Numbered from the stretch's first letter, positions 22,781 through 64,000 are shown. The stretch is DNA of 64,000 nucleotides from Lingula anatina (GCA_051362555.1 CM120641.1:6696001-6760000), one strand, 5' to 3'. Program-made: numbers and translations. The notes: generated by a model from the letters alone, not told the origin.

Positions 22781-25700
22781 TTAAAATGTAGACAGATTTT
22801 GAAAACTTTGCGCAGGTTGTATATATTCTGCATTTCCCGCTTCCATGTAGGAAACCTCGGAGTCCATCATTTCTGGGGAAGGCACAGAATTCGCACTCTG
22901 CGCGTCGGACGTGTCTTGGGCCGCCTTGAAGAGCCAGTTCCTAGCTTTACTATGGGTGGACTGGCTGGAGGAGGCGCCGCTCTTGTACTGACAAGTGTAC
23001 CAGCGCCAGACACCGAACCCAGCGGCACCAAGAAGGACAACAATCAGAGAAACGCCAACGTTCCAGCCCAGGAGAGCCATGGTGGTATTTTTGTTTCTTC
23101 GGCCGACCTCCCGCGCCTCCGCTATCTGTCCACGGACGTCATGCAGCTCGCTCCTCACTTCTTCGAGAACTCGTTTAAACTCGACTTCTTTACCGCCGTC
23201 AACTTCCGTATTGAATTCTTGTACTGGAAATTTGTAAAGAAAATATTCAATTTTGTTGTTAATTGATCATTTTGTCATTTCGATGCTCTTTAATGCACTT
23301 TGTATGATTATCATAGCTGGACTATTATTGTTAACATATATCGACTGTCATATGGAGTTAACTGTAGGCAGTTTTAACTTCAATTCAGCTACTGAATTCA
23401 GTCCAGCACTCCAAAAGCAGCCGAATAGGAAGCAAATTTTAAGTAGGGGCGCTAACCATTGGAAAAATAATCAACCAAGGGTGTGTTTCTCCTTAGACCT
23501 TACCCCCTGCGCTTACGACTCCCATGGTTAAAAAATAATGAAGCTAAACCCCCCTTGGCCCCCCTCCCCCGTAATGAATAATTTAGTTTTCTTATAGATA
23601 AAATTTTGTCCCTTTTCCCTTCTTCTTGTCCAGGACTCGGATATTGGATTTACATTTCATTAAACAGTCATCAACTGAAGAAAAGTAAGTTTAGCTGCTA
23701 ATTAAGGCATTGCTGTTAATGGTTTATTTGCAGTGAGATCTCCATTCACCTTTGAACAATGTCGATAATGGCAAAGTATAACTAACCTAGAGGCGCTTGT
23801 TGTCCGGCCTGGTCTGCTATGTCTAAACACAAAAAGCTGCCTGGGATGTTGATGCACGTGGTACAGGTTTCCACAAGACATTCATCAATATCTGGAAGAA
23901 TATCAACACAATAATCAACTCCAGAAAAAAAAAACAATTGAACATATCTAAAGACACAACAAAGACACATTAAAAAAGACAATTCAACTTCATATGGACA
24001 TTTCTATACCTTATAACTTCTAAATGTTCCAAAAGGAACTCTTCTGATCTTAAGATAGGTTTGGTTGAATTAACTGATTCAGCAAATATTAATACTTACC
24101 AAGACATTCAGTGGTGTCGTTAGACAGGGTGTAACCAGCGTAGCAACCGCACTCAAAACTGCCCTCTGTATTAGAACACGTGTGATGACATCCGCCATTG
24201 TTAACGGCGCACTCGTCGATATCTGTCGGGGAAAAATTATAGCAATAGAAATAAAATATATCAGATAATGTATTCTTATTGTACAATGATCAGGACCTAA
24301 TAACACAGCAGTTTTTAATAGCAAAGCCTGATTGAAAAAAGCATCGGTAATGCTAAGACCAAGCTATAGCAAAATAAATAAAAATCGCCTCTATCAATAC
24401 TTAGCTTGTATGTTATTATTGAGCTACGTGATCCGTCAATCAAAATCTTAAAGCATCTCATAAAAAGCTGTGGGGTAAAAAGTGTATGACGCTAGTTTAA
24501 CAAGGAAAATTGAAAAAAATTTTCAAACCTGTGCATTGTTTCCCATTGGTGGGTCGGATATGTGTGTCATTCTTACAGACACACATTGAAATTCCATCTA
24601 TTTGGTCGACACACTGAAATACATCTGGAATAACAAGCATATTTGGTTTTTGTAAATAAATAAGTCAAAATAAGTATATGAACATCACTAGTGCAGAGGC
24701 TGAACTATTGAATCCTTATCAACGCAATAAAATCATTTTTTCATAAGGTCGAAACTCAATGTACCAATTATAAGACATTTTTGCATTTTCTTAACATTTC
24801 GAAAGCGCCTATCACTATCGCTATATATGGTAATAATGTCATTGTATCATTTTAAGAGGAAGCACTACAGAGAAGGTCAAATTTGTTATATTTTCTGTAT
24901 AATTTCTGAATGGTTTCAGTAAAATAATCCTACACCAAATTACGTGGGGTTTAATTTCACGTTAAGCTTTCATAAGAATACTCATTAATTTAAATGTCAA
25001 GGAATCCTTTTATAGAATTGTTCCACACCTGCGCAGGGCTTTGTATCCGGTATCAATTCAAATCCTTCGTTACAGGTACAGTAGTAGGCACCGACTGTAT
25101 TAATACAGCGTTGACTGCAGCCTCCATTGCTGACTGAGCATTCATCTTCGTCTAAAACAACATTGGACTTGGATTAAGTTTTCATCAGATATAATAACAA
25201 TTTTCTCGAGACTAATGATTTTAATCGATTAATACGTAGGTTTTTGCTTGAAAAACAGATGAGTATTGACCATCTACGAAACAAACTGAAACATGCTGTA
25301 AAGTAACAGAAAGCAAAAATTTATGGAAAGATAACATTTGCATATAACACCTATTAGAAATTTATTTTTCTTTCACGTCAGTCTACAAGTGGACTTTGAA
25401 AATTCAAGGGAAATTTCGTTCAATCAACTTATTCTTTTCGAGGGTGGATTTTCAAATTTCTTTTCAACTTAATACAAATATTTCACGAAGAATACCTTGA
25501 TACGACGGTCCCGGTAACCCTGTGGCTCCAGCGGGCCCAGGTGCCCCTCTCTCACCGGTGTCTCCTGCAGGTCCTGCTATGATGTCAAACTCGCAGCCCT
25601 AAAATGAAGAGACACTCCATTAATCTCTCTATATATGTATATGTTCAATTACAATGCAAGGACCACTAAATTGTTGACAAAAACCTTTTTATTGAAAGCA

Positions 25701-28700
25701 TTCACCGCCTCATAGAGATGTCGATAACGGTAAAGAAAGATTAAGGAAAATGGCTTTACCTTATTGTAGAGTTGACCAATAGGCATAGCATAGCTCTCCC
25801 GGTCTCCGGCTCCGTAGAGTATACCCATCAGTCGAACATTTGAGTCAGGATGGTGCAGAACGTGAGACCCATCTCCCGAGATGATGATATGGCCACCAAC
25901 TTTGTTTGTACCTGGAACTGGACTCCAAGTGATGCCTCTCTGAGAAACAAATTGACCATCGATGGTCAGGCGGTCTTTGAACGCGTCTTCGATGACTATC
26001 ATAAAATAATTGGTGTATTGACCGGCGGCTGCCTGGGGAAGAGAGAAATGGAAGTCGTTGGCGTATTTGTCCGTCGGCGGGATGACGATCATGGCAGGGT
26101 CTGCAACTATGGTATCGGAGGGGACTTGACTCATAACAATTTGTACGACCAGCACAGGGCGAGAAGACACGATGCGAGTTATTCTACTGGATGAAATTGT
26201 TCTCTCGGCGTAACCACCCGCAATGCTCAGGTCGATATTCTCCGTCCTCACTCCGTCATCCAGTGTTACACGGGTGTTGGCAAAGGCACTGACGATTTTG
26301 ACGACGTCGCCGGTCGTTCGTTCAGGTATAGGCACTACGATGTATTCAGTGCCCCAGGAATCAATGGACGGTATCTGTTCTACCAAATGATCGCGGGAGG
26401 GGAGACTGCTTGGGACGGCCGTTCTTATGTTCCCACTGAATACAGCAATAGGCTTGCTGGACACGATGCGAGTTCCAGTCAAATCAGCCCGATTACCACT
26501 GACAATCTCTAGTGAATCGAAACGAGACATGGACGCTCTGATAAGATCCCCGTTTCTGTACGTAATACCTTCATATATTACGCTTATTCTTGGGAAAGCT
26601 ATCTCCGGCAATGTTATGAACACCTCTGTGTCATTATACGCCGCTGCTATTCCAAACTCTGTACTCGTCGTTGGCGGGGCGTATGAAACTGTCAGGTATT
26701 CCGTTCCAAGAGCATGGACAGGAATAGCCAGGAAACCGTCCGCCGAAAATTCGTCCTTGTTAATGCCAAATACGGCGATGTCTTCGGTCGCTTCTATAAG
26801 GAGACCCTGCTTTGTCAGACGGGTTCCTTGCATACGCATGTTGTTGTCTATTTGAAATAGAGAAACTTCTCCCTGTTGGACCACACGTGTGATATTGGTT
26901 CGGCCGAAAAAGTCTCGCACGGTAACTGTCGTTGCCGCTACGTCGTCGCGCCCCAGGGTTACAAAAACGTCCAGTTTAATAATGGTGGGAACCTCAATGG
27001 TATTTTCCATGAACATCAAGAAATACTCTTTCCCACCTCGAAATATGGTTGACCTACACTCTGCAAAATATAGACAAGAGGAAAATGTTAAATTAACATT
27101 ATTTTCTATCTGAAGAACTTGCATAAAGCTCAACTACTGTTTTTCAAATATGTAATTACTGCATTATGCGTAGCTAACTTTTAACAAACACAACATTTCG
27201 TGGCACATCAATCAGAAAGCAACAACATGGATTAATTTTGATTATTTGTTTCGAAAAAACATTAGATAGACAAAGGCACTCAGCAGAAAGGCCGCGAAAC
27301 ATACAAACACGCCTCACAGAAAATTACCTGGTTCATAATATCCCGTCTCTCCTCTAGAGCCAGTGGGTCCAACTGGGCCTGTGTCTCCCTTTTCACCTGT
27401 AGGTCCGACAGCCCCAGTGACACCTGTAGCACCTGTATCTCCTTTTTCCCCTGTAGCACCAGACTCTCCAGCAGGCCCTGTATCTCCTGAAAGACCCCGA
27501 TCTCCCTTCGGCCCCGTAGCTCCAGTTGAACCATTTAATCCTGTTGGTCCCTGTAATCCGGGATCCCCTGTATCGCCTTTTGGGCCCGTTTCGCCTTGCG
27601 TTCCGTTGAGACCAGCAGGACCAGGATCACCGGTGTCTCCTTTCACGCCCTGGGTGCCCTGTTCTCCAGTTGCTCCCTGTTCCCCAGTGTCACCCTTGTC
27701 TCCCTTCGCCCCAGCTTCACCTGTTTCACCCCGCTCTCCACTGGCACCAGTTGGTCCAGTCTCTCCCTTTGGACCTGTTTGCCCAGCAGAACCATTCCTT
27801 CCCGGCAAACCAGGATCACCTTTAGGGCCTGTCTCTCCCATTTCACCAGAGGCTCCTTTCTCACCTGTTGGTCCTGCGCTGCCAGTTGCACCTGTTGCTC
27901 CTGAAGTGCCTTGAGGGCCAGTGCTACCTGTGTCACCTTTAGAACCGTTTGCACCTGAGGGACCTGTCGGGCCTCTTTCTCCTGTGGCACCTGCAGCGCC
28001 ATCATTACCGGGAGCACCTGTTGAACCCTCAGCACCAGGCGATCCAGTGTCACCCTTGGCACCTCTTGGCCCTGTAGTTCCTGGCGCACCTTTGTCTCCC
28101 TTTGAGCCAGTTGCTCCCGTAGCACCAGTCGAACCGGTTGGTCCTGCTATCCCGCTATCACCTTTTTCTCCAGTACCACCTGTTGCACCAGTTGCCCCAG
28201 CTTCACCAGTTGGGCCTGTTGCACCTGTTGGTCCAGTTGGGCCTGCTACTCCGCTTTCCCCGGCAACATTTACTACTTCGCCTGGTGGACCTTGAGGTCC
28301 ACGGTCACCTTTCTCTCCTTTGGGACCGGTAGGTCCTGTTGCGCCATTAATACCGTCTGTCCCATTTATTCCTGCCAGCCCTGTATCTCCTTTGGTTCCA
28401 GTGGGACCAGTGTTGCCGGTTGCGCCGGTCGCCCCTGTGCTCCCTGGACTTCCATTATTCCCTGCTTCTCCAGTTGCTCCCGTATCACCTTTTTCTCCAG
28501 TGGCTCCTGGGCTACCCGTACTGCCTGGTGGACCCTGCTCTCCTGAGGGTCCAGTTGACCCAGCTGTTCCATTCATACCCGATGCTCCCGTAGGTCCCGT
28601 AGCTCCAGGTTCGCCGGTATTACCAGTTACACCAGATGCTCCAGTAGGGCCGACTGCTCCAGTTGCTCCAGTTTCACCAGTTGGTCCAGTGCTGCCAGTC

Positions 28701-31700
28701 TCACCATCGGCCCCAGGTTCTCCATCTACACCATTTGCACCTGTCGGTCCTGTGGCACCGGGGCTACCAGTTTCCCCTGTACTTCCTGCTGTTCCGTTCA
28801 ATCCAGGGAGGCCGGCTGCCCCTGTGGGTCCTGTAGCACCTTGTGGGCCTGTTGCTCCAGGTTCACCATTCGTTCCATTAAACCCAGGCGCTCCAGTTTC
28901 ACCAGTTACACCACTAGAGCCCGTCGGGCCAGTTTCTCCAGGCATACCCGTAGGTCCTACAGCGCCAGTTAGTCCAGTTGGTCCAGTATCTCCTGTTGGT
29001 CCGACAGGCCCGCTTGCACCAGTCACGCCTTGCTCCCCCTGAGGACCTTGTTCTCCTGTGCTGCCATTGACTCCTGGGGTGCCAGGCAGACCCGTCGCTC
29101 CAGTCTCCCCCGTTGCTCCATTTTCACCAGTGGCTCCAGCTTGCCCTGTGGGACCAGGAGGACCTTGCGATCCAGTGGAACCAGTCTCTCCAGATGCGCC
29201 TTGTTCTCCCTGTGGTCCGGTTGACCCAGGAGGTCCTTGCTCCCCTTGTTCTCCTGTGGGGCCAGATGCCCCTTGGGGACCTCTTTGTCCGGGGGTGCCT
29301 GGTGGTCCTTGAATCAGGATGCCTCCATCGGTTCCACTTCCAGATGAACATGTCTGTTATGAAAAGGGAACAAGTTCACAATACAAAAATTAATTACAAC
29401 TTGTATCACTACATGTTTCTAATGCAATGGCAAGACAGTGTAGAAGAAAATGTTCTCAGAGCACATTGTAAAAGCTGAATACTGCATTAAGCCAAATACG
29501 TCAAAGACAATGACATTTACAATTACATTTACAATTAATCATAAAATCATGTTGAATACCCGTTGCAGATTTTGAGAAAGCCAAAATGAAGAGCCGAAAG
29601 ATGGCGACAAGCAAGAGAATAGATATACACTTTAATTGTAGTGTTGCTAAAATCGTACTGACAATAACAAAAGTAAGAACATCTACTTACAGATGAATAT
29701 GTATGCCCTAGGGGTAAAGCATAACTCTCTCTGTCGCCGGCCCCGTATATTATAGTCATGAAGCGGACGTCTTGGTTTTCATGGTATAAATGATGAGGGT
29801 ATCTGCCGTTGATTTCAAGGTGCCCTCCCACGAGGTTGGTTCCGCTTATGTTGTGCCACTGAACACCAGACAAATGGGAGAAGTCCAAAAACAGTCCAAT
29901 TTCTTTTCCGCGCTCTATTGCGATCAAACAGAAATGGCGGTACGAGCCGCGTGTTGCATTGGGGGGAACGAAATGATAGTCTTTCATGTACCGTTGTGTT
30001 GGCGGGACTGAAATCATGGCAGGGTCTGCAAGCTCCCCGATGACCTGGCTCTTGGCGATCTGAACCACCATAACTGGTTTGTCTGCGGCGATGCTGACGT
30101 ACTGACTGGTTTCCAATGACAGTTCCTTAACGGCTCCGCGGTCAAGAGTGGTTCTTTCATACACATCAGCATACTGGATGGTGATGTTTGTATTGTCGAC
30201 GGAAGCAACCACTCGAATCACATCTCCAACAAGGCGTTCTGGAATTGGCACCACGGCGTAGGTCAAGCCCCAAGCGTTCACGGGAGGGAGCTGTTCTACC
30301 AAATGGTCCCGGGAGTAGCCGCTCTCTACGCTTGTCCTTACGTTACCGCTAAACACCGCAACAGGAAGGGAGGCCAAAATGTGTGTTCCAGTCAGATCAC
30401 CAAACCCGACGTCGATGATTTGAACGGAGTCATGGCGGTTAACAAACAAAGTGATCTGGTCCCCTGCTGTGTAATTTTGACCATCCACCTGGACATTTTG
30501 TACACGGCTGGACAGGTGGATCCTAATCAGTGTGCTATCAAAAGCGACGGCTATGCCAAACACGGTGCTGGTGGTAGGCGGGGTGTATGACACTGTGAAG
30601 TACTCGGTTCCAAGAGCGTGGACAGGAATGGCCAGAAAACCATCAACAGAGAACTCGTCCTTGTTCAGACCATATACCACGACGTCGGCAGAAGCGGAGA
30701 GGCGCAGTGCATGCTGGGATGTTGTACTTCCATGTAAACGATAACTGGCTGGGACAGGCACTGTGTGCACCTATATAATGATAAAACATAGCTCCAGCAA
30801 TCATATAAGTATAGAATCGTTTAGATGAGTTATCAGAATAGATATTTATAAAACACCACAGTTAAGAATAAACGCATCTTGATTATATTTTGTCTTTGAC
30901 GTTGTTTTAAGTGGAAAGCGGCCTATTTAAACTATTTTTTAATGTTTTAAATTTCTAATTAAGCAATTAGCTAAAACTAAAAACCCACCGTATTAAAATA
31001 ATTCCAAAATACCATAATCAGTTTGATTCCTTTTACAGCCATAATAACCTTAACATGCTAAATATGAACCTGAAAATGCACATTATCCCCTTGACATATA
31101 ATTTGTGATATTGTAAAATTTTTTGTCCTTACCTCGCCTTGGTGAACCGTTCCATTAGCCATTGTTGCGTTTAATGTATCGATACGATAATTGACCTGAA
31201 ATTAAAACAATATGTAGAAAAATCATTAACCATATACTTTTAATTTTGTTTTCGTTTTCCTTTAAGTACTCGTTTAACAAGAAAATTTGAGTACATTCAT
31301 CACTGTTGTCTTCTATAGAGTTTCATTTGCTGTCAAATCATTAAAAATCTAAAATGAAGTCTCTAAAGAGATAACATATTATGTAGAAACGCATGAATGA
31401 AAAATGTTGCAAATAATGTTCCTCGGTAACGGTAAGGAGTGGCTATAGCTTTCATGCCACAAGAAAAGTGCATGTCGTCACAGGCCGAGACGCTATACTG
31501 TTGAAATAGCCTGCGCCACTCACCGGCCCGGCTCCTCCAAACCCTGCTGAGATGAATAGCTCCATTGGCATTCCCGTTGGAACTTCTACAATATTCTCCA
31601 AGAAAATGATGAAATACTCCTTTCCACCTGATACTGTGCAAGCTGAAAACAAAAGAAATGCCAATTAATATAACTGCTATATGACTATTTCAATGAGCAG

Positions 31701-34700
31701 GAATCGGACCTAGTAATTACATTAAATACTGCTTGAAAGTAATACAAGATGATGAATTATCTGCGTTTTCTTTTATAAAGTACAACAGTACTGTCGCCAG
31801 TTGCAATTGTTACATGAAAAGAAAATCAAGGTGTACTAAAATGGAGGTTGAAATCAACCTTTTTCCTTCTTCTCATTAAAAACAACATAAGTTAATCAAT
31901 AAATATACTAGAATCATAATTTCCTATTTCTTTAAAGCGGCGTACACTCACCCGCATTCGGCAGTTGAGTGTAATCAAATATAGGTGCAGGATTTGAGCT
32001 GGGTGTTGTTGGTCCCTGGGGACCTGTCGCTGAAACAGTACTCGTAGGTGCTGTTGCTGCTATTGTACTTGAAACAGGTCTTGGTGTTGAAGCTGCTTGT
32101 GATGTTGCTGTTTCAGTTGTTGTTGTTGGCGACGTTGTAGTCGTTGCCTCCGTTGTTGTCTCTGTTGTGGTCGTTGTTTCTGTTGTTGTCGACGCTGTAG
32201 TCCTTGTTTCCGTTGTTGTTGACGATGCTGTTTCAGTTGCAGTTGTTGGTGAATTCGTTGCTGTTGTTACTGCTTGTTGGACTGTAGAAGTTGTCTCCGA
32301 GGAAGCCGGACAATCCTGTGCACAATTAGAAAAAAATAAGGATATAGTGCTAGGGAAGATTTAATTTTCTAAAATCAACAATTCAAATTTGTAAAGCCAC
32401 CTTTATTACACCTTTAAACGCCATAGTAGAGATCACAGGATCGTTTTTTTTTCAAAGAATTACTTCAAACTTCTAATAATAACAATAACAATAATCACGA
32501 TAATAATAATAATAAAAATAAAAGTTTATAAACCTCTTACCTGATCAGACACAATATTCAAAGCCAGTGGTAGCATATAACTCTCGCGGTCACCAGCCCC
32601 GTACAATATGGCCATGAAGTGTTCATTCTCGTCAGTATGTCTCAAACTATGGACCTGGTTATCGCTTGCTACCTGAATATACCCGCCCACGAGGTCGGAC
32701 TGGGGGACATTTTGCCAAGCATCCACCTGCAAGGGTTGGCCATCATAAACAAGACCGCTTTCCATTTCACTTCGGATGACTATCATGACGTAATGCGTGT
32801 ACGTGGCGTTTTGCGATGGAGACAGTCTTGGCGTCATGAAGCGATAATCATAGCCGTATTGTTCCACCGAGGGCACGATGACCATGGACGGATCTGATAG
32901 TTCAGAAACTCTTGAGGGATCTCCTCTCTGGCTTTTCACGAACTGAACAACGAGCACCGGTTTATCTGCAACGATGTGGGTAACGCGGCCTGGAAGGACT
33001 TCAAGATCAAAATATCCACCCGCACTGGCGATGGTCCGCGTCTCATTCCCGGCTGCTCCTGAGAAAGTACAAGTGACGACCGTCCCACGTTTGCTGCTAA
33101 CGATGCGGATCACGTCGCCCGTGGTTCGCCCTGGTGTGGAAATCACTGCAAACTCTTTGCCCCATTTGTCAATCGATGGTATCATCTCAGCTAAATGATC
33201 TCGGCTATCGAAACGCACGGGTTTAACGCTGGTTCGGCTGTTCCCACTGAAAATAGCTACCGGCACTGAAGACCTTATGTAACTGCCAGTCAAGTCGGAT
33301 CGGTCTTGACTCTGCCATTGGTAACTTTCGAATGCCTTCATGTTGTAGATAGAAGCATTCTTTCCATTTGAAAGGGTGACTTCAATGTCTGTGTTGTCAG
33401 CAACGGCCACAACCGAAAACTGCGGGCTTGAACTCGAAGGCGAGTATGTGACCACAAAGTACTCGGTACCCAAAGCAAAGGTGGGTAAAACCAGAAATGC
33501 GTCAGAGGAGTACTGCATTTGATTCACACCTATCACAATGACGTCCTGGTCTGCCGTCAATCTGAGACCGCTTAAACAGTTCGTTGTTCCTTTCACGCGA
33601 AAGTTATCAGGCACAGAAAACATACCAACCTGGTCGCCATTTAGGGTCAGGGTTTGGTTACCGAGGAGCCTGGTTTCATTGTGTACGTTCGTGAGAGATA
33701 CGTGGACGTTTTGTGCACCGTTTCGCCGCGGAGTTACCAGCACTTGCGCGGGCATCACATTCTGTTCTGGCACCGAGTTCTCCGAAAACATTAGGAAATA
33801 TTCTCGGCCAAAGAGGCAATCTGCTTTCACATCTGTAACAAATTTAAATAAAAAAATCATTTTTATCACATAGGGTGTTTTGATCTATCAGGAATAGAAA
33901 AAATTATAAATCTGATATATTGTAAAATCTCGGTTGAAATAAAAACAATCTTTAAATTTGGTTTCCATATAAGGAAATAATAAATAAAATAATGAAAATC
34001 AATGTAAATATGAGAATGTAGTTAGAGCTGTGATGATGTTTTTTTTCTTTTTGTGATAAGTTAAATGGTTTCACAATAGGGAAGGCATGATAAGGCAGGC
34101 AAGGCTGGGTGGGTGGGTGGGTGGAGGGTCACTGGGTGGAGAGGCAGAGGAAGAGGCGGGTGAGTGTGAAAGGTAAATGTTAATTAATGGATGGAAGATA
34201 ACTAAAGGCGTTGGCGGGGAGGGTGAGATGGAATTTGGACACATTTTGTAATGCACCCTAAGGTTCTAAGATAAGGCGTAGTTGGAAGTTGAATATAAGG
34301 GAATTTTCAAATTTAAGGCGGTTATAGCCACAGGTAAATCTGTGAGCGTTTAAGTAAGTGGTAAGTGAATAAATGGGCGGATGTCCAACATTTTTTATAA
34401 TAGAAGGCCTGTAGCAAGAATTTGACTGTTGAAAACGGACAATACTCCCTTCAAAGGAAACTGTGAACAATTTCCTGGGAACAGCCTTCTCAGATAAATA
34501 AATTACCAGAACATTCCACGCAAGACGAGTCTTATCTAGCTCAACCCCTTATTACAACCATGAATAGTGTATTTTCGTAAAACAGGGTTCGTCCGGTCAA
34601 CTAAGTGAACTATACATACATTTATTTCCACCTTTGACGTTTGACCTTTTCATGCACACATTTAAAATAAAAGTGGTGCTCTAGCAGCAGAATAAACTTG

Positions 34701-35131
34701 ACCTACTATATTATAAGGATAGTACGTTCACAAACACAATCATGACCACACTGCGCCTACACTTACACAATCACAAAGAGCGCATTCTCAACGAATTAAG
34801 CCAGGCTTTACAAAGCCGGTGACCTAAAAATGGCGGACGTACATGAAAGAAAAACCGCATAATCTTTTAATAGTCTCTGCGGCTCTTATCCACATGAAAA
34901 TGTGATAGCGGAGAGAATTGTAAATGCGCCACGTTTTAAAGACTAACTTGACGAGATGTACAGGTAAAGATTATAAGCTTAATAGGCCTGTATTACAACT
35001 TGGTAAGAAATCAAAATAGGCGTAAAAATGATATTTAGGGGCATATCTTTGATGATAGGGACAGTGCAATTAAAAAAATTACCTTGTAGCTGGAACATCA
35101 CTGCGGCGGCAATTAAAACAAGGCTCCGCAT
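22781..35131 (-). CDS. Large type I membrane protein (~2428 aa): signal peptide - IgGFc-binding 1 - Thr-rich stalk - IgGFc-binding 2 - long collagen - IgGFc-binding 3 - short collagen - EGF x4 (two partial) - coiled coil - TM - cytoplasmic tail
   Basis: Fourteen GT-AG exons total 7287 nt with all phases consistent: 35131-35083, 33832-32541, 32315-31952, 31642-31524, 31195-31133, 30770-29691, 29353-27328, 27060-25760, 25598-25496, 25151-25029, 24624-24529, 24222-24100, 23891-23787, 23223-22781. IgGFc-binding motifs GxEYFxxFxEN, DxFLxxP..ALGTEY, DLTG..I.S..PxAxFSGN, DHLxEQ.P...WG, DPxM...P and YG...ESY occur three times. Signal [20 protein letters not shown]; [26 protein letters not shown]. Confidence 0.85.
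27328..29353 (-). other. Single 2026-nt exon encoding ~215 Gly-X-Y triplets (Thr-rich collagen domain)
   Basis: Continuous Gly-X-Y with one interruption (GEVVNVAG, ~28260-28282). GPT, GAT, GET, GST and GDT triplets dominate. Confidence 0.95.
31952..32315 (-). other. Thr/Ser-rich mucin-like linker exon
   Basis: [68 protein letters not shown]... Confidence 0.85.
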
Positions 35132-44100: not shown

Positions 44101-44569
44101 AACGTTTGTTAAATTTGCCTGCGTACTCGAGTCGTCTACAACATAAGTGACGTTATGCGATAATAGAAAACGGGCGAGAACAAGCGTGAGCTGGGGTTAA
44201 CTTTTAAGTGACAGTTTTTTTTAGTGCCGGGCAAGTCATCTCAGAAATGTACAAAAATGACACGCAAATAAAGTGAATTAGACAGAATACAAACAGAAAA
44301 TTATCTGTGGATAAATTCTGCCAGCTTTTATTCCTTGCCTCACCGCAATCTCTAGTCTCAAATTATTTCTGACTCTCGCTCGATTGAACGTAAAGTCGGA
44401 AGACTTTTGGCTTTATCAGAAGATTTGCATTAACTTTGACATTTATATTCAAATTTAGTAGCCATAAATACCTCTTGTCAAATTGTGAAGCAAGCCAGTG
44501 AAGTCGTGTTCATGATCAAATGTTTCATTTCTCTCAGATCCGTCATGGTGGTGATGATGGTCGTGAGGG

Positions 44570-44875
44570 CTGGGACGAGAATGTGGGTGTCCATGAGGGC
44601 TGGGGTGAGAATGTGGGTGTCTATGGGGGCTGGGATGAGAATGTGGGTGTCTATGGGGGCTGGGGTGAGAATGTGGGTGTCTATGGGGGCTGGGACGAGA
44701 ATGTGGGTGTCCACGGGGACTGGGGCGAGAATGTGGGTGTCTATGGGGTCTGGGACGAGAATGTGGGTGTCCAAGGGGGCTGGGGCGAGAGCGTGGGTGT
44801 CCATGGGGTCTGGGGCTAGGACGTGGCTGTTCCCGGGGATTGGAAGAAGGGTGGGGTTGTCCATGGGGGCTAGGT
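44570..44875 (-). repeat. 30-bp coding tandem repeat (HS[RH]PSPH[GR]HP)
   Basis: Unit gagaatgtgggtgtc(t/c)atgggggctggg(g/a)(t/c), repeated about 8 times. Confidence 0.9.
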
Positions 44876-45383
44876 GACGGAGGGGAAGGGCTATGGGGAC
44901 TGGGAGAAGTGCGTGTGTGTTTGTGGGGGCTACGGGGAGAAGAAGGAGGTTGGTGGGAGCTAGGAGAAGGGGGAGAAGGAGGAGGGAGGAACCAGAAGCA
45001 GCGATGGTAAAGGAACTGTAGGGCCGTGACGTCGAACTTCGACCTGCTTGTTTCCTAGCCTTCCATAACCACTGCCCTGCAAAAGTAGCGAAAAAAATAT
45101 ATCGTAATAGACAGCATACGTAATACTGGAAAAGAAAAGAAATACTCTTAATCTTTTCGAAGCATGTTCTTTTTGAACAGCTTTATTGTATGACACATTT
45201 GTGTTCACTTTCAAAATTGAAATTTCAGGGAAGATAATTATAATATGCAACATTCCTCATTTCCTCCAGGTCTTCTTGCATTCACAAGTTTAATCTAAAC
45301 GCTACACTTTAATCCTTTTCAAAATTCATACTGCATTCATTTTAAAATTAAGGGTCACACAATTTAACACAGTGCCCCATAAC

Positions 45384-46050
45384 CACCCTGAGCTTCAGAG
45401 ATAACTTGCCACTAACCTCTTCACTATAGCCTATCTTCATCGTGTCAAGTTACCTCTGACCACATTCGATAGCCCCCGCCGCCCGCCAATCAAATTTAAA
45501 GCCCGCCCTCAATGACTCATTGAACGATCTAGCCAATGAACGCGAACGAGTCAAAGCGCGCTTTGTTCAAATCCGGACCAATCAAAGATAAGGCTGAATA
45601 TCAGGGACTTGCCGTAACCTGTGGGCAGCACGCAAAATACATCATCCCTCAGTAGATAATGATGCAGGGCCTCAAACTGATCTGGTTTCAATTCCGATAT
45701 ACTCATATTTTGCAAAGAATCAAGAGATAACTTAACACACTTATTTACGTAGTCACTCGTAGGAGACGCCATGCTTTCTTTGTGTACGGTTATGCACTCG
45801 GAACTACTCGGATGTCTCCGCACTCGACAATAACTTTGTTGTTAGTGGAGCTTGCGGAATCAGCCGAGGATTGCCGATTGACGGTCAACCAATCAGCGTT
45901 TTCACCAAACTTTGGTGAAAAATTTTGAAACATGGATTCGATTGGCTTATATAAACTAGGTCAAACTATTTTCGTCAGAGGTAACTTGACACGATGAAGA
46001 TAGGCTATAGTGAAGAGGTTAGTGGCAAGTTATCTATGAAGCTCAGGGTG
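45384..46050. mobile_element. 667-bp non-autonomous DNA transposon with 77-bp TIRs, 8-bp TSD and a RecQ-like helicase fragment
   Basis: TIRs 45384-45460 and 45974-46050 (one mismatch seen); TSD cccataac at 45376-45383 and 46051-46058; internal minus-strand ORF ELKPDQFEAL...DVFCVLPTGYGKSLIF (RecQ motif 0 and Walker A). Confidence 0.9.
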
Positions 46051-46979
46051 CCCATAACGGGCCACGGAGAGAAATTTTATTAGATATCCAAAAATAATTT
46101 TTTTCTACTTAATTCTGTCTACATATCTGTATCGCAGGAGAGACATTTTGTACAATAAATTCAAATGACGCTCCTTCACAGCTGGCTTCTTTTAAGTAGA
46201 GAGTAGCGAGTAATGGTAACAAATTTCGCTCAGCGTAACAAGCATGGAAAATCGACCTAAAAATGGTTCGAAAACGGTGATTTGACTGAATGAAAGAGTC
46301 CAGATTTACATCGACCGTGGAGAAAACGATATCAAAGGGTATCAAAATGCAAGATAAGTGCATCTAATAGGTTGCTTAGTTAATATCACCTTTAATTATT
46401 ATCTTTAAACATATTGTTGGTCTTCTTTTTATTGATATAGTGTGTATACATATAAACCTACCATTGTTCTTGCCCACTATCAATAGAGTTATTCCTAACA
46501 TTAGCCATGGTGCACTTTGCAATCGCATCTGGAATTATGAACATTAAACATAAACGTAATGGTTGCTTTGCTTATATCTCTGTTCGACCTTCCAAAACGG
46601 GAATGATAATAAACATTAAGTGAATCGTAAATTCTCACGCTATCATGCACACTTTCCAAGATTCTAAAAATTGCTTGGATAAGTAATATTTGCATTTTTT
46701 CGGCAGTGTTGATTTTATTATTCCAAATGGAACATAGGTTTATTACAAATTTGTCCAGACTAATTTGCTTAGAGAACATGACAATGTGTTTTTTTTCTGT
46801 TGAACATTGGATAACGTTAATTTGATTCATAAAGCCACACTACCTTTGATGGCCACTGGCTAATCCTATGAGTCGCGTCCGTAACTTGCTCAAGGAAAAG
46901 ACGTAGGAGTTCCGTTTGAGTTTCCGTCAGGTGAGTCAGGTGGAGCAAAGTTACCTCCAAATTTTAAATAGGCGTAGGT

Positions 46980-48616: not shown

Positions 48617-51411
48617 TCAAAGCTTATTTTTTAATGACAAATTGGCAAATGTAACAACGTCACTACTGTGTTCAAAACTTTCCGTTCCTAAGTTCGATCT
48701 CTGGAGTTCTTTTTCAAGCCTGTTTAGTCTACAAAAAAGGATCAGTACCATAAGAACTGCAATATCAACGACAAGAAAGTACGCCACGGACTGCCAAAAA
48801 TGTTCTTCTCTGTTCTTTTTCTGTTCAGCTTTCATGTTTTCTTGCAGTTGGATTCGAAGCTGTTGAAGTTGGATTTCCATGGATCCCTGTTGCTCTCCAA
48901 GAAAGTCACCATAGATGTCGCCACTTTCAATGCCCGCCGCTCGCTTCTTGCGACCGTTCTGTAAATTTCCACCGATGCCCAGGCAGAAAAAAGAACCTGG
49001 AGTGTTGATACAAATGGGTGAACAACTTCCCGGCAACAGACACTCGTTTATATCTGCGAAGAGAAAAAAGTAACCTCATACATGAAATCAAAATGGAGGG
49101 GACGGAACGTAAGATCAAAAGCTTTCAAGAAGAAACGTGCTTCACTCCGAATTTAAATCTCTTTGAAATGTTGAAATGCTGCAGAACTAAATTAATAACA
49201 GTACGAATAAAATCATTTTGTTACCCTCTTTACATACAATTTTAAGTCTAATGAGAAACTTGCTTCAATTTTAATATAAATCTACCCTAAAATGTAAAAA
49301 CAAAAAAGAGCTAAGTAGGCCTATAACTACAGATAACTGTATGGATAAATTCATTTTATTGCTCGATGTCTCCCTTACCAATGCATGTCTTGGAATCATT
49401 TGAGAGACGATATCCATCCGAACAACCACAGAAGAAGCTACCAATGGTATTAGTACACTGGTCTTGACACGGACTCTCCATGATACACTCATCCTTGTCT
49501 TGAATACAGAAAAGTGAAATAAAAGCGATATCTGAATATATTGGAATAAACCAGACGGCAGGATATAGAGCAAATGGATAATTTGTTTACATTTTTTCAG
49601 AAAAGATTTGTTAATTTTTTTTTTTTTTTTTTTTTTTGGGGGGGGGGGCAGATTGAATAAAAAAACTGCATTTTGACGGCGGATTGTGGCTTAAAACTTT
49701 TTATTGTGCCATAATTACAAAGCACAGTAGGTAACCATCACATTCGCTTTCATTACAACCTCATGATCCTTTATATAGGAATGCAGCATATATCATGCAG
49801 TTGATATAATCTAATCAGAATAATGGCCAAAACGAAGGTATTTTCTTTACACGTAGAAATAAAAAATAAATAAATAAAAAATAATAAAAAAAATTTTGCA
49901 CTGAAAGGTATGATGAAAAGGGTTCCGTGATAAAAGACATTACGGGATTATTGTTGTACATGGTCATTTATCTGAAGTAAACCGATGAATATCGAACAAT
50001 TAACTACTTACTTTTAAGTCCACAGTGCTAAAAATTCAAAACCAGCGTTTGATTGCAGAATTTGATTAAAGCCTTTGACTCTATGATTAGCGTACCTTGA
50101 CACCTTGTTCCATTCACTGGGTATCTCCCATTGGGATCTTCACAGATACACAGCAATTGATTGTATTCGTTTAGCGCCACACACGTGATTTCATATTCTG
50201 AAGAAACAAAGAACGGTATTTACGGGTGACAAAATTACAAATACAGGTTGAACAATTGATCACTAATTAACAAAATACATGTCTCTGGTAATTATCTTGA
50301 TATTCGTGAGGTGAGTGGTTATTAGATTATTATTGTAGAATATATAACTAAAAATACTAAATAAGTGCAAATCACACTTACTACATGAAGTTGTGTCGTT
50401 TTCCCCGGCCACCAGTTGATAGCCCAGACTACACGCACAGTAATGGCCGCCGTACGTATTTACACACAGGTCTTCGCAGCCGCCATTGTTAATAGAACAG
50501 GGGTTCTCGTTGCAGTAACAACTGTCTGTATTGTTGGTCCAAAACTCTAAAGAAAAGTTAAGACCTGCGCCAAATTTCAGTTATATTTCGGAATGCATTA
50601 ATGGAGATAGGTTCGCAAACACACATACCGCACATTGAAATATCTACAGATAAACTAAAATTACAGACCAATCAAATGATCATTAGATTAAAACGTTTTG
50701 AATAACATACCTCTTGCCATATTAAGAAGCAAGCCATGCATATGTTCAAATGTTTCATTTCTGCCAGATCCGCCATGGTGGTGATGGGGGCTGGGACGAG
50801 TACGTGGGTGCCCGTGGGGGCTGGGACGAGTACGTGGGTGCCCGTGGGGGCTGGGACGAGTACGTGGGTGTCCGCGAGGGCTGAGACGAGGATGTGAGCG
50901 TCCGTGAGGGCTAGTGGGAGGGGTAGGACTCCGAAGATGCTTTGTTTTCTTCAATCTCAATGCTGAAAAAACTATGTCAGTGAATACATTGCACGACGAT
51001 GCATATTATCATCCGAAAAGATAAGTCAAAACCTCCAGTTAATTGGTTAGAAACGTTATTTTGACTATCGAATGCACTGCTTAAGGCCTACTTGCATACA
51101 CAAGCAACTGTATTGAGATAAATAATTATATTAAAAAATAATCGTTCTCTGCTTGGACATACACGGTAATAACGAACATTATTATAAAGGTGCTTTTATG
51201 TCCAAGTTCTCAGCTGCCATTCTTTTCTTCCAACCCCTCAAGTCATATATATAATTCTTCCACTTGAATCCATTTAAAAGTTTCAATTTCCCTATTAACC
51301 CAAGATATATTACTGAACAAATATAAACATATATATAAACCTACCTTCATTCGAATTCAGCGCCGTTACAATCAACGTAAGCAGGAGCCATATCATAGAT
51401 TCTAGTTGCAT
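48617..51411 (-). CDS. His/Pro-repeat EGF-TM paralog B (~380 aa): signal - (TRPSPHGHPR)n/poly-His - EGF cassette - RKKR - coiled coil - TM
   Basis: Exons 51411-51345, 50962-50711, 50546-50382, 50197-50096, 49498-49379 and 49053-48617 total 1143 nt, all phase 1, no stops. Confidence 0.87.
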
Positions 51412-51652: not shown

Positions 51653-51659
51653 ATTTATA
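51653..51659 (-). promoter_or_regulatory. TATA box (TATAAAT) of paralog B
   Basis: Upstream of putative non-coding exon donor GAAG|GTAAAT near 51562. Confidence 0.45.
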
Positions 51660-52269: not shown

Positions 52270-52406
52270 CGTATCTCGAAAGCATCGCGCATTGCGACCG
52301 TGCGCAAGCGTCTCGATTCCAAAACTCGCCCATACTCGCCCCATATAATACACTGTAGCCTCTATGTGGTATCGCTATTCGCAACACGCGATGCTTTCGA
52401 GATGCG
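52270..52406. repeat. Inverted repeat (28-bp arms), probable MITE remnant
   Basis: cgtatctcgaaagcatcgcgcattgcga and tcgcaacacgcgatgctttcgagatgcg. Confidence 0.6.
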
Positions 52407-52543
52407 TTGCCCAGTTCAGCACAGGCTCACTCGTACACTGGCGTGGACGAGGTAAAATGAAAAGGGATGCGTATTGTTTATCATTGATCATGTTTTCAAT
52501 TGGCCTTCTTGGAAAAAACGAAATAAATTTGAGTTTCTTGATA

Positions 52544-52705
52544 GAGGGCATTCAGAGCAGCGGACTAACAGATCCTTGGGTCAAATATGCGTAATCCCCG
52601 CGGGGAATCTATTCAGTGCCTTATCGGGAATTTAAGCGGCAACCTTTTTGGTGGCTCGCCATATTTGATCCACGGATATGTTAGTCCGCTGTTCTGAATG
52701 TCCTC
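52544..52705. mobile_element. Short fold-back MITE
   Basis: About 45-bp TIRs: gagggcattcagagcagcggactaacagatccttgggtcaaatatg and catatttgatccacggatatgttagtccgctgttctgaatgtcctc. Confidence 0.7.
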
Positions 52706-53833: not shown

Positions 53834-54139
53834 TTAATAGTAACCGTAGTTCGTCTGGTATCCGCTAGAGCGTTGGTACCCGGCGTTGTAGCCACGATCA
53901 TAGTCGTTTTCATAATAATCGCCTTGGTTGTTTCCATAGTAACCATCGTTGTTGCTACCATAGTAACCATCGTGGCTATTATAGCTGCCTCCGTGGCGTC
54001 CATCGTTGTACCTGTAGTCGTTGCTATAGTAGCCCACATTATAGCCTCTGCGATTATTTCTCTTGAACCCGCCACGACCGTAGAATGGTGCGGCAAGGGC
54101 CACAGAAATCAACACGGCAATAATAATGAGCTTCATCAT
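53834..54139 (-). CDS. Small secreted Tyr/Gly/Asn/Arg-rich protein (101 aa)
   Basis: Signal peptide MMKLIIIAVLISVALA; the 85-aa mature part has about 20 Tyr, 17 Gly and 13 Asn by hand count. TATATAAA at 54233-54226, a likely 3'-UTR intron (~53812-53454) and AATAAA near 53310. Confidence 0.85.
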   Translation of the reverse strand: MMKLIIIAVLISVALAAPFYGRGGFKRNNRRGYNVGYYSNDYRYNDGRHGGSYNSHDGYYGSNNDGYYGNNQGDYYENDYDRGYNAGYQRSSGYQTNYGYY

Positions 54140-54225
54140 AGTGATAGCGGTGCCTGCTCAACTGATAAGTCTTCTGAAGTTAGACGTCACGGTTTAAAAC
54201 TGGTGTCCCTACCCAAACGTGTTCC

Positions 54226-54233
54226 TTTATATA
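54226..54233 (-). promoter_or_regulatory. TATA box (TATATAAA) of the Tyr-rich gene
   Basis: Consensus TATA about 87 nt upstream of the ATG. Confidence 0.6.
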
Positions 54234-56684: not shown

Positions 56685-59416
56685 TCATACTTTAGGCTCA
56701 TGCTTTAAAGATAAATCCTGAATTTTTATAACGTCACTGCTAGGTTTAAAACTTTCAGTCCAAAGGATCGATCTTTCGATTTCTTTTTCAAACCTGTTTA
56801 ATTTACACATAAGGATCAGTGACATAACAACTGCAATAACAGCGATCAGAAGGTATATCATGGACTGCCAAAACTGTTGCTCGACGTTCTTTGTTCTTTC
56901 AGCTCTCATGTTTTCTTGCAGTTGGATTCGAAGCTGCTGAAGTTGGATTTCCATAGATTCTTGCTGCTCTCCAAGAAAGTCGCCATAGATGTCGCCACTT
57001 TCAAAGTCCGTCATGTCCGCCGCTCGCTTCTTGCGACCGTTCTGTAAAAATCCACCGATGCCCAGGCAGAAAAAATCACCGGGGGTGTTGATACAAATGG
57101 CGGAACACATTTCAGGAATTGCACATTCATTTATATCTGTAAAGAGAGAAAAATACGCCCAATAAATACATTCAAAACAGAGGGAAATAAATGAAAATTT
57201 TAAAGGCTTTTAAATGCTATTATATGCTATATTATAAATGCTATTATATTAAATTTGAAATGCTATTTGTTAACTTACGGGAAACTCAACATAAATCCAC
57301 CTTGAAATGTCAAAATGGGTAGTTAAATAAAACTTGACTTTATAGTATGTATATAACCTCTTAATTACTCGTTGTTTCACTTACCAACGCATGTCTTGGA
57401 ATCATTTGAGAGACGATATCCATCCGAACAATTACAGAAGAAGCTACCAATGGTATTAGTACACTGGTCTTGACACGGACTCTCCATGATACACTCATCC
57501 TTGTCTAGAATACAAGAAAGATCAATGTAAGATGTTTGAACATATTGCAACAGGACAAAACTTAGGGCCTAATCAGAAAAATACTTGACGGTGGAGTATA
57601 GATCAGATGGACACCTCCTTTCAATACCAATAGAGAGAAAGGAAAACCAATGATGGTGACGTTATAACATAAAAAGGTTTTGTCGGACCGAATATGATTG
57701 TATAAGTTTCCATAATAGATTTGCTCATGGGCAGTCAAACAGGTACACAAATTGTCTATATTTAAAGTAACACTTATAAAACATGAGTAAACCGATTAAT
57801 TTACATTCTTTTGAACCCAGACCAATCTTCGAATAAAGATAATTTTGTCTTTGACTGATGACAATTATGATAACCAGACCACTTATTTCTGTGAAACGAT
57901 GGTCAGCGTACCTTGACACCTTGTTCCATTCACTGGGTATCTGCCATTGGGATCTTCACAGATACACAGCAACTGATTGTATTCGTTGAGCGCCACACAC
58001 GTGATTTCATATTCTGAAAAAAAAACAAAATTGGTAGGCCTATATTTGACTGTTAAATACAATTACGGGACTGGAACTTCAGGTTGATAAAGATAATAAA
58101 GAAAGCTGGCTTCTTTTTTGTGCAAGATAGAGGGATGAGATAATACGTTGCAATTGAAATTGAAATTCTCCAAGTATTCCATAAAATTGCAAATAACATG
58201 AAAATAAGATTAACACTTGAATATATTTATAAAAACACTTACCACAGGAAGTTGTGTCGTTTTCCCCGGCCACCAGTTGATAGCCCAGACTACACGCACA
58301 GTAATGGCCGGCGTACGTATTTACACACAGGTCTTCGCAGCCGCCATTGTTAATAGCACAGGGGTTCTCATTGCAGTAACAACTGTCTGTATTGTTGGTC
58401 CAAAACTCTATTTCCAAAGAAAATATATATAAAAAGAAATAAATCGCAAAATAGGAGGAGTTATTTTGAATGTTCGAAATACCTTAAATCCATGTAGCAC
58501 CTATCATCGAAATATCTGCAGAATAGAGCATTGAATTGTAGGCATAAAAAAGGTCGTTTACATAAAAAATTAGTCGAATTACATACCTGCTGTCAAGTTT
58601 TGAAGCAATCCACTGAAGTCGTGGTCATGTTCAAATGTTTCATTTCTGTATGATCCGTCATGGTGGTGATGATGGTCGTGGGGGCTGGGACGAGAATGTG
58701 GGTGTCCATGAGGGCTGGGACGAGAATGTGGGTGTCCATGAGGGCTGGGACGAGAATGTGGGTGTCCATGAGGGCTGGGACGAGAATGGTTTCCGTGGGG
58801 GCTAGGACGAGAACGGTGTCCGTGGGGACTAGGACGAGAACGTCGCGGTCCGTGGGGGCTAGGACGAGTCCGTGGGTAACTGGAAGGGCCGCGACGAGAG
58901 GGCATGCGGTGTTTCTTTGGCCCCTTTGCTTTAAAATAAAAGGACAACAGAAACATTATGTACATGCACAGGTATATTATAACAAGCAGTGTGTACTATG
59001 TAGAATTATTTTAAACGGCGTATATTTGATGAACGCTAGGATACTAGATTAACGTTAACGATGTGACTTTTAATTCTTTGAATAAAAGATTCCCTGTACT
59101 CCACTTTACTCTTCTTCAGGTACGCTGAATTCATAAGTACGTATATTTAACTTCATACGAGTTGTAAAGGATAAGATTCCCCTCAACGACTACAAATGAC
59201 ATTTATTAGGGCACCAGCCAACGATCTAAAATGCATGTTTAAAAATAGTGTTTTAAATAGATAGAAAGGAAGTACTCGAAATTGAACGATAGGTAAAAAT
59301 GACCGAATATGCAATCAAAATTCCTGTCAATCAATAAATGTACACTTACCTTCGATCGTGAGCAGCACTATAAAACAAATCGCCAATATGACCCATAGCG
59401 TAGTTTGCAACTTCAT
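56685..59416 (-). CDS. His/Pro-repeat EGF-TM paralog C (~415 aa): signal - (SRPSPHGHPH)n/poly-His - EGF cassette - RKKR - coiled coil - TM
   Basis: Exons 59416-59350, 58928-58587, 58407-58243, 58013-57912, 57504-57385 and 57136-56685 total 1248 nt, all phase 1. Signal MKLQTTLWVILAICFIVLLTIEA; TM MIYLLIAVIAVVMSLILMC. Confidence 0.88.
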
Positions 59417-63990: not shown

Positions 63991-64000
63991 CTAAGATGGG

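What the first reader, a model, noticed from the sequence alone, without database searches (positions are those of the whole stretch)
22781..59416. Candidate biomaterial gene cluster: one membrane-anchor cassette carrying interchangeable structural cargo
Seen: four co-oriented genes end in the same phase-1 exon series: EGF, a 4-Cys module ([27 protein letters not shown] versus CVALNEYNQLLCICEDPNGRYPVNGTRC), Ca-binding EGF, truncated EGF (DIxEC..C..CINxPGxFxCL), heptad-like helix, TM. Their N-termini differ completely: IgGFc-binding/mucin/collagen in one, His-Pro repeats in three. A secreted Tyr/Gly/Asn-rich gene sits among them. Established: collagen, His-metal coordination and Tyr/DOPA chemistry are recurring ingredients of invertebrate load-bearing and adhesive materials (mussel byssus preCols and foot proteins, polychaete jaw and cement proteins). 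Inference: the cluster encodes a co-expressed extracellular material (cuticle, tube, glue or mucus) assembled at a cell surface. I do not recognise this as a described system.
Basis: partly seen in the sequence, partly recalled or inferred. Interest (0 to 1): 0.85.

Follow-up and report, generated by a model that had tools for sequence, protein, structure and literature searches.

The report
Lingula cell-surface coat gene cluster
In the brachiopod Lingula, a giant membrane-anchored collagen gene and two small histidine-rich membrane-protein genes lie side by side, share EGF-type exons and are active in the same RNA sample, and they likely build a surface coat on eggs or embryos rather than an adult shell or glue.

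Summary
The genes are real; the one-material, one-cassette reading is only partly right. Protein hits place the window in Lingula anatina. Gene A (2428 aa, splicing confirmed by RNA) is a type-I membrane protein: three IgGFc-binding domains, a mucin stretch, Thr-rich collagen, EGF modules and a predicted trimeric helix running into the membrane. B, C and D are tandem paralogues with one His-Pro cargo and an RKKR furin site; B is broken and nearly silent. A shares EGF, 4-Cys and truncated-EGF exons with them, but its helix/TM tail is unrelated in sequence and lacks the furin site. The same modules recur at two other Lingula loci, so this is a dispersed exon-shuffling toolkit. A, C and D are expressed in a run with very high cyclin mRNA. 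The Tyr/Gly/Asn gene is off there and on in another run. C, D and the two relatives are absent from a 54-protein adult shell proteome. Best reading: a coat on eggs, gonad or embryos, made of tethered collagen trimers plus shed cationic proteins. It is a new variant of Lingula's known EGF-collagens.

The parts
22781..35131 (-). Gene A, 14 exons, 2428 aa type-I membrane protein: signal peptide, IgGFc-1, Thr-rich mucin, IgGFc-2, collagen, IgGFc-3, mini-collagen, EGF, 4-Cys, EGF, truncated EGF, helix, TM, about 75-aa tail
   Evidence: open spliced model; Pfam; RNA joints
35083..35131 (-). A exon 1, signal peptide
   Evidence: low RNA depth in this bin in X12/X13
32541..33832 (-). A exon 2, IgGFc-binding domain 1 (PF17517, E 7e-58)
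31952..32315 (-). A exon 3, Thr/Ser-rich mucin-like stretch
29691..31642 (-). A exons 4-6, IgGFc-binding domain 2 (exon 6 E 1e-56)
27328..29353 (-). A exon 7, single-exon collagen: 115 + 103 Gly-X-Y triplets, Thr at 93 of 218 Y positions, Pro at 24
25760..27060 (-). A exon 8, IgGFc-binding domain 3 (E 9e-60); all-beta model, pLDDT 93
25496..25598 (-). A exon 9, 8-triplet mini-collagen
25029..25151 (-). A exon 10, EGF (phase 1-1)
24529..24624 (-). A exon 11, 4-Cys module (spaced like EGF Cys3-Cys6)
24100..24222 (-). A exon 12, Ca-binding-type EGF
23787..23891 (-). A exon 13, truncated EGF (Cys1-Cys4 only), separate exon
22781..23223 (-). A exon 14, heptad helix predicted to trimerise, TM, cytoplasmic tail; no furin site
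41774..46528 (-). Gene B, His-Pro paralogue, probably a pseudogene: exons 46528-46462 (candidate signal exon), 45076-44472 (out of frame), 43703-43539 (TGA at 43698-43696), 43318-43217, 42538-42419, 42159-41774
   Evidence: depth 0.47 over its unique last exon in X12
45384..46050 (.). High-copy MITE-like element in B intron 1: 77-bp terminal inverted repeats, 8-bp target duplication
48617..51411 (-). Gene C, 380 aa: signal peptide, His/Pro/Arg/Ser repeats, EGF, 4-Cys, EGF, truncated EGF, RKKR, helix, TM; exons 51411-51345, 50962-50711, 50546-50382, 50197-50096, 49498-49379, 49053-48617
   Evidence: allele P0002; rough RPKM about 750 in X12
53834..54139 (-). Gene Y, secreted 101-aa Tyr/Gly/Asn-rich protein; expressed apart from A, C and D
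   Evidence: expressed in X18, zero depth in X12 and X15
56685..59416 (-). Gene D, 415 aa, same architecture as C; exons 59416-59350, 58928-58587, 58407-58243, 58013-57912, 57504-57385, 57136-56685
   Evidence: allele P0001; rough RPKM about 110 in X12, inflated by reads from C
16671..20807 (-). Neighbouring A/B-type cyclin gene, used as a marker of the RNA samples (not part of the system)

Best explanation
Genes A, C and D encode exon-shuffled type-I membrane proteins of Lingula that likely build a cell-surface coat in eggs, gonad or early embryos: A is predicted to stand as a membrane-tethered collagen trimer, and C and D would be cut by furin to release small His/Pro/Arg-rich EGF proteins. 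SHOWN: gene structures, splicing, domains, the RKKR site in B/C/D and its absence in A, joint expression of A, C and D in a cyclin-rich run, and separate expression of Y. PREDICTED: three copies of A's juxtamembrane helix and TM form a coiled coil. INFERRED: this trimer sets the register so that the 218-triplet collagen folds from its C-terminal end; the Y-position threonines are glycosylated in place of hydroxyproline; the IgGFc and mucin modules are held away from the membrane as a glycocalyx-like layer; the shed 22-Cys cationic C/D ectodomains bind anionic glycans or metal in that layer; the sample type is egg, gonad or embryo. B is a decaying copy and Y is a neighbour with its own expression.
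For: Architecture and splicing. Trimer model of A exon 14 (residues 1-80, 3 copies): score 0.66 vs best control 0.14, runs agree in at least 97% of contacts, pLDDT 82, heptad-spaced contacts at 12-54 continuing into the TM. The tool's mark was reached by 21 of 30 solved pairs and 0 of 23 single chains (eukaryotes 17 of 29, animals 7 of 16, 0 of 30 single chains); it was calibrated on two copies. Heptad p 0.007. Collagen folding from a C-terminal trimerising domain and stabilisation of Gly-Pro-Thr by glycosylation: passages of PMC11923368. Thr fills 42% of Y positions in A and in P0123, against a median of 4% over 122 collagen-bearing sequences examined. RKKR is invariant in B, C and D and furin sites recur twice in P0123. 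Rough RPKM in X12: C 750, D 110, A 33, cyclin 880, Y 0. X13: A 16, cyclin 1140. X18: Y 12, A and cyclin 0, C/D traces only. Not in the adult shell list. EGF+furin+TM precursors occur on eggs of nemerteans (PMC11673550 passages).
Against: The tissue or stage of the runs is not disclosed. Egg, gonad or embryo is inferred from one neighbouring cyclin whose subtype is unresolved (cyclin A2 31 bits vs B1 27 bits). Only one run (X12) shows A, C and D together; C and D were not examined in X13. A falls by half from X12 to X13 while cyclin rises. X15 has no expressed control gene in either stretch, and X15 and X18 reads map mostly at 95-99% identity, so negatives may be partly mapping loss. Joint expression could reflect a shared chromatin domain rather than a shared structure. 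Only three copies were modelled, and amphipathic helices may pass from likeness to solved coiled coils. There is no ZP module. No cleavage, glycosylation, metal binding or localisation was tested. Two FCGBP-like Lingula genes are mantle-specific in PMC4595640 Table S19 and could not be mapped to or excluded from this locus.
Confidence: 0.5

Rival explanations
1. The proteins make the glycocalyx or mucus layer of an adult or larval epithelium (mantle, lophophore), like other FCGBP-domain and mucin proteins; the cyclin signal comes from other cells in a mixed sample.
For: The FCGBP N-terminal domain is mucus-associated in vertebrates (PMC4948705 passages). A has a mucin stretch and 27 N-glycosylation sequons. 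Two FCGBP-like genes are mantle-specific (FPKM 304 and 206) in PMC4595640 Table S19.
Against: A, C and D are at or near zero in X18, a cyclin-negative run in which Y is expressed. C is as abundant as the cyclin in X12.
Confidence: 0.17
2. They are components of the first, purely organic embryonic shell (protegulum), secreted before hatching.
For: [quoted passage not shown] EGF-collagens are adult shell proteins. A cyclin-rich sample fits embryos.
Against: No chitin-binding domain was found in the 16 exons scanned. The adult shell EGF-collagens are listed with collagen and EGF domains only. The stage is unknown.
Confidence: 0.13
3. A and B/C/D are functionally unrelated neighbours that drew independently on Lingula's pool of phase-1 EGF-type exons; there is no shared system.
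For: Tails are unrelated, and intron position and furin site differ. The 4-Cys signal is modest: in profile tests 3-10 of 200 Cys-fixed shuffles reach the score in 7 of 8 tests and 94 of 200 in one, and ordinary EGF halves can score as high. C's truncated EGF is as close to an ordinary EGF exon of D (69) as to A's (68). The modules occur at other loci.
Against: The same four-module order in adjacent, co-oriented genes. A's truncated EGF scores best against B/C/D (61-68 vs 21-49 for the other EGFs). Joint expression in X12.
Confidence: 0.12
4. One reading: all five genes co-produce an adult load-bearing or adhesive material cured by His-metal and DOPA chemistry.
For: Collagen, His-rich and Tyr-rich sequences are all present. 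A, C and D are co-expressed in X12.
Against: Y is expressed apart from the others in both informative runs. B is broken. C, D and relatives are absent from the adult shell list. Collagen and His-rich parts are in different, membrane-anchored chains.
Confidence: 0.08

Closest known systems
Lingula EGF-domain collagens (Luo et al. 2015, PMC4595640)
   Same: Collagen joined to EGF/FXa_inhibition/EGF_CA modules by domain shuffling; 17 such genes reported, 4 in the shell proteome.
   Different: A is membrane-anchored, carries three IgGFc domains and a mucin stretch, and has Thr-rich collagen. B/C/D have no collagen. C and D are not in the 54-protein shell list, and no IgGFc domain is listed there.
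Lingula XP_013406006 (P0123) and XP_013396611 (P0005), uncharacterised
   Same: Three IgGFc domains, collagen, EGFs, terminal truncated EGF and TM. P0123 also has four 4-Cys-like modules, 42% Thr at collagen Y positions and two furin sites. P0005 has a heptad helix before the TM.
   Different: Different module order, other loci. P0123 has no juxtamembrane helix. P0005 has a TSP1 domain and no 4-Cys module or furin site.
ZP-module egg-coat precursors (nemertean NeZPL1-6, ascidian HrVC70; PMC11673550)
   Same: Signal peptide, EGF modules, furin site and TM; egg-surface role.
   Different: No ZP module in A-D. Only about 50 residues lie between RKKR and the TM in C/D. Oocyte expression is not shown here.
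FCGBP / FCGBP_N-domain proteins (PMC4948705)
   Same: PF17517 domain, which in invertebrates is combined with many other domains.
   Different: No VWD-C8-TIL units; three internal copies; collagen and TM present.
Vent-worm cuticle collagen with glycosylated Thr (Mann et al. 1996, seen only as a reference in PMC11923368)
   Same: Thr dominates the Y position.
   Different: Glycosylation not tested here. A is a multidomain membrane protein.
Vertebrate membrane collagens XIII/XXIII/XXV (recalled, no call)
   Same: Membrane collagen with a juxtamembrane coiled coil that trimerises the chain.
   Different: Those are type II and furin-shed; A is type I with no furin site.
Mussel byssal preCols and foot protein 3 (recalled, no call)
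   Same: Collagen, His-rich and small Tyr/Gly/Asn-rich sequences.
   Different: preCols carry collagen and His-rich ends in one secreted chain. Here they are in separate membrane proteins, and Y is expressed separately.

Membership tests
Lingula EGF-collagens (Luo 2015) | Collagen and EGF domains in one chain | tested here: met
   Gene A, (not B/C/D)
Lingula EGF-collagens (Luo 2015) | Detected in adult shell proteome | tested here: inconclusive
   A has no database record, so it cannot be checked by accession; no PF17517 or IgGFc entry in the PMC13425148 supplement; C, D, P0005 and P0123 accessions are not among its 54 rows; Luo Table S25 seen only in part
Lingula EGF-collagens (Luo 2015) | Mantle expression | not testable with these tools
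   Run tissues are coded
Vertebrate-type FCGBP | FCGBP_N / PF17517 domain | tested here: met
   Three copies, E 1e-56 to 9e-60
Vertebrate-type FCGBP | VWD-C8-TIL repeats | tested here: not met
   None in the 10 A exons scanned; the four unscanned exons are 49-119 nt, too short to hold them
ZP-module egg-coat proteins | Signal peptide, furin site, TM | tested here: met
   C and D; A lacks the furin site
ZP-module egg-coat proteins | ZP module before the furin site | tested here: not met
   Pfam lists only EGF families for P0001/P0002 and D exons
ZP-module egg-coat proteins | Oocyte expression and egg-surface location | not testable with these tools
   Only indirect: cyclin-rich runs
Fibulin / LTBP (automatic RefSeq names of C and D) | Secreted protein with long cbEGF array plus fibulin C-terminal or TB domain (definition recalled) | tested here: not met
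   Two full EGFs, TM present, no such Pfam domains
Membrane collagens XIII/XXIII/XXV | Type II topology with N-terminal TM (recalled) | tested here: not met
   Signal peptide at the N-terminus, TM at about 2330-2350 of 2428
Membrane collagens XIII/XXIII/XXV | Juxtamembrane coiled coil that trimerises | tested here: inconclusive
   Model supports but does not show it: 0.66 vs control 0.14
Byssal preCols | Collagen flanked by His-rich ends in one secreted chain (recalled) | tested here: not met
   A has 38 His in 2428 aa and a TM; His-Pro repeats are in separate genes
DOPA adhesive proteins (Mfp-3-like) | Small, secreted, Tyr/Gly/Asn/Arg-rich (recalled) | tested here: met
   Gene Y composition
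DOPA adhesive proteins (Mfp-3-like) | Tyr converted to DOPA, secreted from an adhesive gland | not testable with these tools
   Needs protein chemistry

The most novel reading that the evidence does not exclude
Lingula builds its egg or embryo envelope without ZP proteins at this locus: membrane-rooted, Thr-glycosylated collagen trimers tipped with IgGFc domains form the scaffold, and furin-shed His-Pro/EGF proteins fill or cross-link it. Their EGF core is kept identical between paralogues by exon-confined gene conversion while the His-Pro arms and anchors diverge, as expected of gamete- or microbe-facing proteins.
Probability: 0.2. Interest if true: 0.7.

Novelty: new variant of a known kind. 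Interest (0 to 1): 0.42.

Why it matters
If right, it shows that Lingula's known EGF-collagen shuffling also produced membrane-anchored, non-shell collagens and a lineage-restricted family of furin-shed His-Pro proteins, one of them as abundant as cyclin mRNA in the sample where it is on. That gives first molecular candidates for the egg coat or embryonic surface of a linguliform brachiopod, an animal Gly-X-Thr collagen to test glycan-based triple-helix stability, and an invertebrate setting in which to study the poorly understood IgGFc-binding domain. It does not yet show a new load-bearing biomaterial.

Tried and rejected
No whole genome was held, so the cassette could not be counted genome-wide and synteny could not be tested. 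No RNA holder was listed by the index; raw-read runs with the same species label were laid instead. X15 showed no coding gene in either stretch, so it is uninformative. Reads joining exons of C to exons of D or B, including 'goes back' joints that cannot occur in cis, were treated as cross-mapping between near-identical exons and not as chimeric splicing; real D-to-C splicing, as in RefSeq isoforms P0003/P0004, is not excluded. The structure model of the C allele was low confidence (pLDDT 40) and was not fold-searched. The IgGFc-3 model (pLDDT 93) had no sequence match in the PDB and no clear fold match (Foldseek TM-scores at most 0.15; best Z 7.1, none at 8 or more), so it gave no functional hint. 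ESM Atlas for C residues 160-380 gave only generic EGF clusters, best 0.83, a lead only; Y could not be searched there. Gene A itself was not found among proteins of 759-2165 aa (38 hits) or 1183-3375 aa (best 120 of 522 listed). The IgGFc tree (16 domains) had no starred branch; A's three copies group weakly (80/93). Four look-ups of earlier findings were empty. Ten paper searches listed nothing that describes these genes; the library lacks most subscription papers. The expression spreadsheets of PMC13121700 were too large to read and may settle the stage question.
Full report
ORGANISM AND SETTING. The last exon of gene D matches two proteins, both labelled Lingula anatina (99% and 71% identity; 2 hits of 304 candidates). 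They are alleles of D and C with automatic names 'LTBP1' and 'fibulin-5'. The cluster lies on the minus strand between an A/B-type cyclin gene and PHD/bromodomain exons consistent with BPTF. No whole genome was held.

GENE MODELS. A has 14 exons (35131-22781) and reads open for 2428 aa: signal peptide, three PF17517 domains, a Thr-rich stretch, 218 Gly-X-Y triplets in one exon, a mini-collagen, EGF, 4-Cys, EGF, truncated EGF, helix, TM and tail. C (380 aa) and D (415 aa) have six exons each: signal peptide; 66-90 residues that are about 23% Pro, 18-23% His and 16-17% Arg (net charge +14 to +16); EGF, 4-Cys, EGF; then one exon with truncated EGF, RKKR, helix and TM. B has the same layout, but exon 2 is one base out of frame and exon 3 holds a TGA. 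Y is a 101-aa secreted Tyr/Gly/Asn protein. RNA joints match 9 of 13 introns of A, 3 of 5 of C and 2 of 5 of D among the rows displayed.

IS THE CASSETTE SHARED? Partly. With Cys held fixed, A vs B/C/D scores for the 4-Cys exon are reached by 5-10 of 2000 shuffles and those for the truncated EGF by 0 of 2000. A's truncated EGF scores 61-68 against B/C/D and 21-49 against the seven other EGF units tested, although C's scores 69 against an ordinary EGF exon of D. The helix-TM-tail is not similar (300-1059 of 2000 shuffles). A has an intron and no furin site where B/C/D have RKKR. By Cys spacing the 4-Cys module looks like the Cys3-Cys6 part of an EGF and the truncated EGF like Cys1-Cys4. Profile tests of the 4-Cys module across loci are modest, and EGF halves can score as high. 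A profile of the B/C/D tail found 1 protein (C's own cluster) among 1.84 billion representatives, so that tail appears restricted to Lingula in this library.

THE MODULES ARE A DISPERSED TOOLKIT. Two other Lingula proteins combine three IgGFc domains, collagen, EGFs, a terminal truncated EGF and a TM: P0005 (XP_013396611) and P0123 (XP_013406006). P0123 has four 4-Cys-like modules and two furin sites. Of 164 fetched proteins, the 4-Cys pattern matched only the four C/D records and P0123. Luo et al. (PMC4595640; passages, section 11, supplement searches, and parts 7 and 9 of 24 seen) already report 17 EGF+collagen genes in Lingula, 4 of them in the shell. Lang et al. (PMC4948705; passages) report that invertebrate FCGBP_N domains occur with many partner domains.

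EXPRESSION. Four RNA runs were laid in all, three of them on both stretches (rough RPKM from bin depths). X12: C about 750, D about 110 (inflated by cross-mapping), A about 33, cyclin about 880, B's unique last exon about 0.3, Y 0. X13 (same study; left stretch only): A about 16, cyclin about 1140. X18: Y about 12, A and cyclin 0, C/D traces. X15: no coding gene seen, so uninformative. A, C and D are therefore on together in one run and Y is on elsewhere. Tissues are coded. Cyclin mRNA at this level is typical of eggs, gonad or early embryos (my own knowledge); that is the only basis for the stage. In the 54-protein adult shell list of PMC13425148 (passages, supplement searches and part 1 of 132 seen) the accessions of C, D, P0005 and P0123 are absent and PF17517 never occurs. 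Of 16 hits for the XP_0134076 prefix, the 12 shown are actin.

MECHANISM. A 218-triplet collagen needs three chains in register, and collagens usually fold from a C-terminal trimerising domain (PMC11923368 passages). A has no COLFI or C4 domain but has a juxtamembrane heptad (7 of 9 a/d positions hydrophobic, p 0.007). Three copies model as a coiled coil continuing into the TM: score 0.66, best control 0.14, at least 97% contact agreement, pLDDT 82. The mark was reached by 21 of 30 solved pairs and 0 of 23 single chains, by animals 7 of 16, and was calibrated on two copies. This supports but does not show a trimer. Thr fills 42% of Y positions in A and P0123 (median 4% over 122 sequences; the other ten above 40% are unnamed or prokaryote-like records). 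The same paper notes that Gly-Pro-Thr forms a triple helix only when glycosylated, so O-glycosylation is inferred. C and D have 22 ectodomain Cys, an even number, upstream of an invariant RKKR, so furin would release a cationic EGF protein and leave a helix-TM stub. This topology resembles egg-coat precursors with EGF, furin site and TM (PMC11673550 passages) but lacks the ZP module. The alternative target in embryos is the organic first shell (PMC5880059 and PMC13121700 passages).

EVOLUTION OF B/C/D. Synonymous divergence is 0-0.15 in exons 3-5 but 0.32-0.57 in exon 6 and 0.48-0.73 in exon 1. The introns around the central exons differ in length, and their first and last 40 bases match at only 10-29 positions. 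This points to exon-confined homogenisation, most simply gene conversion (inference). It explains why RefSeq merges D and C into one locus.

VERDICT. Observation partly confirmed; interpretation partly supported. This is a Lingula-type exon-shuffled family of membrane glycoproteins, most likely forming a coat on eggs, gonad or embryos (0.5). Rivals are epithelial mucus (0.17), embryonic organic shell (0.13), unrelated neighbours (0.12) and the five-gene adult biomaterial (0.08). New variant of a known kind; interest 0.42. Ten paper searches listed no description of these genes, within the limits of that library. Comparisons with byssal preCols, Mfp-3, collagens XIII/XXIII/XXV, fibulins and LTBP rest on recall.

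Noticed in passing
window 43703-42419, 50546-49379, 58407-57385: Exons 3-5 of B, C and D are nearly identical even at synonymous sites while their introns and outer exons have diverged: exon-confined homogenisation.
   Followed up: partly
window 27328-29353: Collagen with Thr at 43% of Y positions and many N-glycosylation sequons, encoded in a single 2-kb exon; the same bias in Lingula P0123.
   Followed up: partly
P0123 (XP_013406006): 2861-aa Lingula membrane polyprotein in which two furin sites would cut it into three IgGFc-headed pieces, one with a long collagen.
   Followed up: partly
window 45384-46050: High-copy MITE-like element with 77-bp inverted ends, an 8-bp target duplication (hAT-like, recalled) and an internal DEAD-helicase-like fragment (Pfam E 5.5e-4, below cut-off); transcribed in all three RNA runs.
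   Followed up: partly
window 16671-20807 (-): Divergent A/B-type cyclin, very highly expressed in X12 and X13 and absent in X15 and X18; its last exon lies further left than the stretch modelled.
   Followed up: partly
window 11747-13030 (+): Intronless rhodopsin-family GPCR (PF00001, E 2.5e-21).
   Followed up: no
window 3322-4771 (-): LINE-type reverse transcriptase remnant (PF00078, E 7e-39).
   Followed up: no
window 62892-63998 (-): PHD and bromodomain exons consistent with the 3' end of BPTF.
   Followed up: no
window 16218-16562, 41537-41730, 52268-52700: Dispersed high-copy repeats picked up by reads from many other loci.
   Followed up: no
P0007, P0008 (Watersipora), P0006 (unnamed): Proteins built of tandem IgGFc domains without collagen also occur in a bryozoan and an unnamed record.
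   Followed up: no
   Followed up: no
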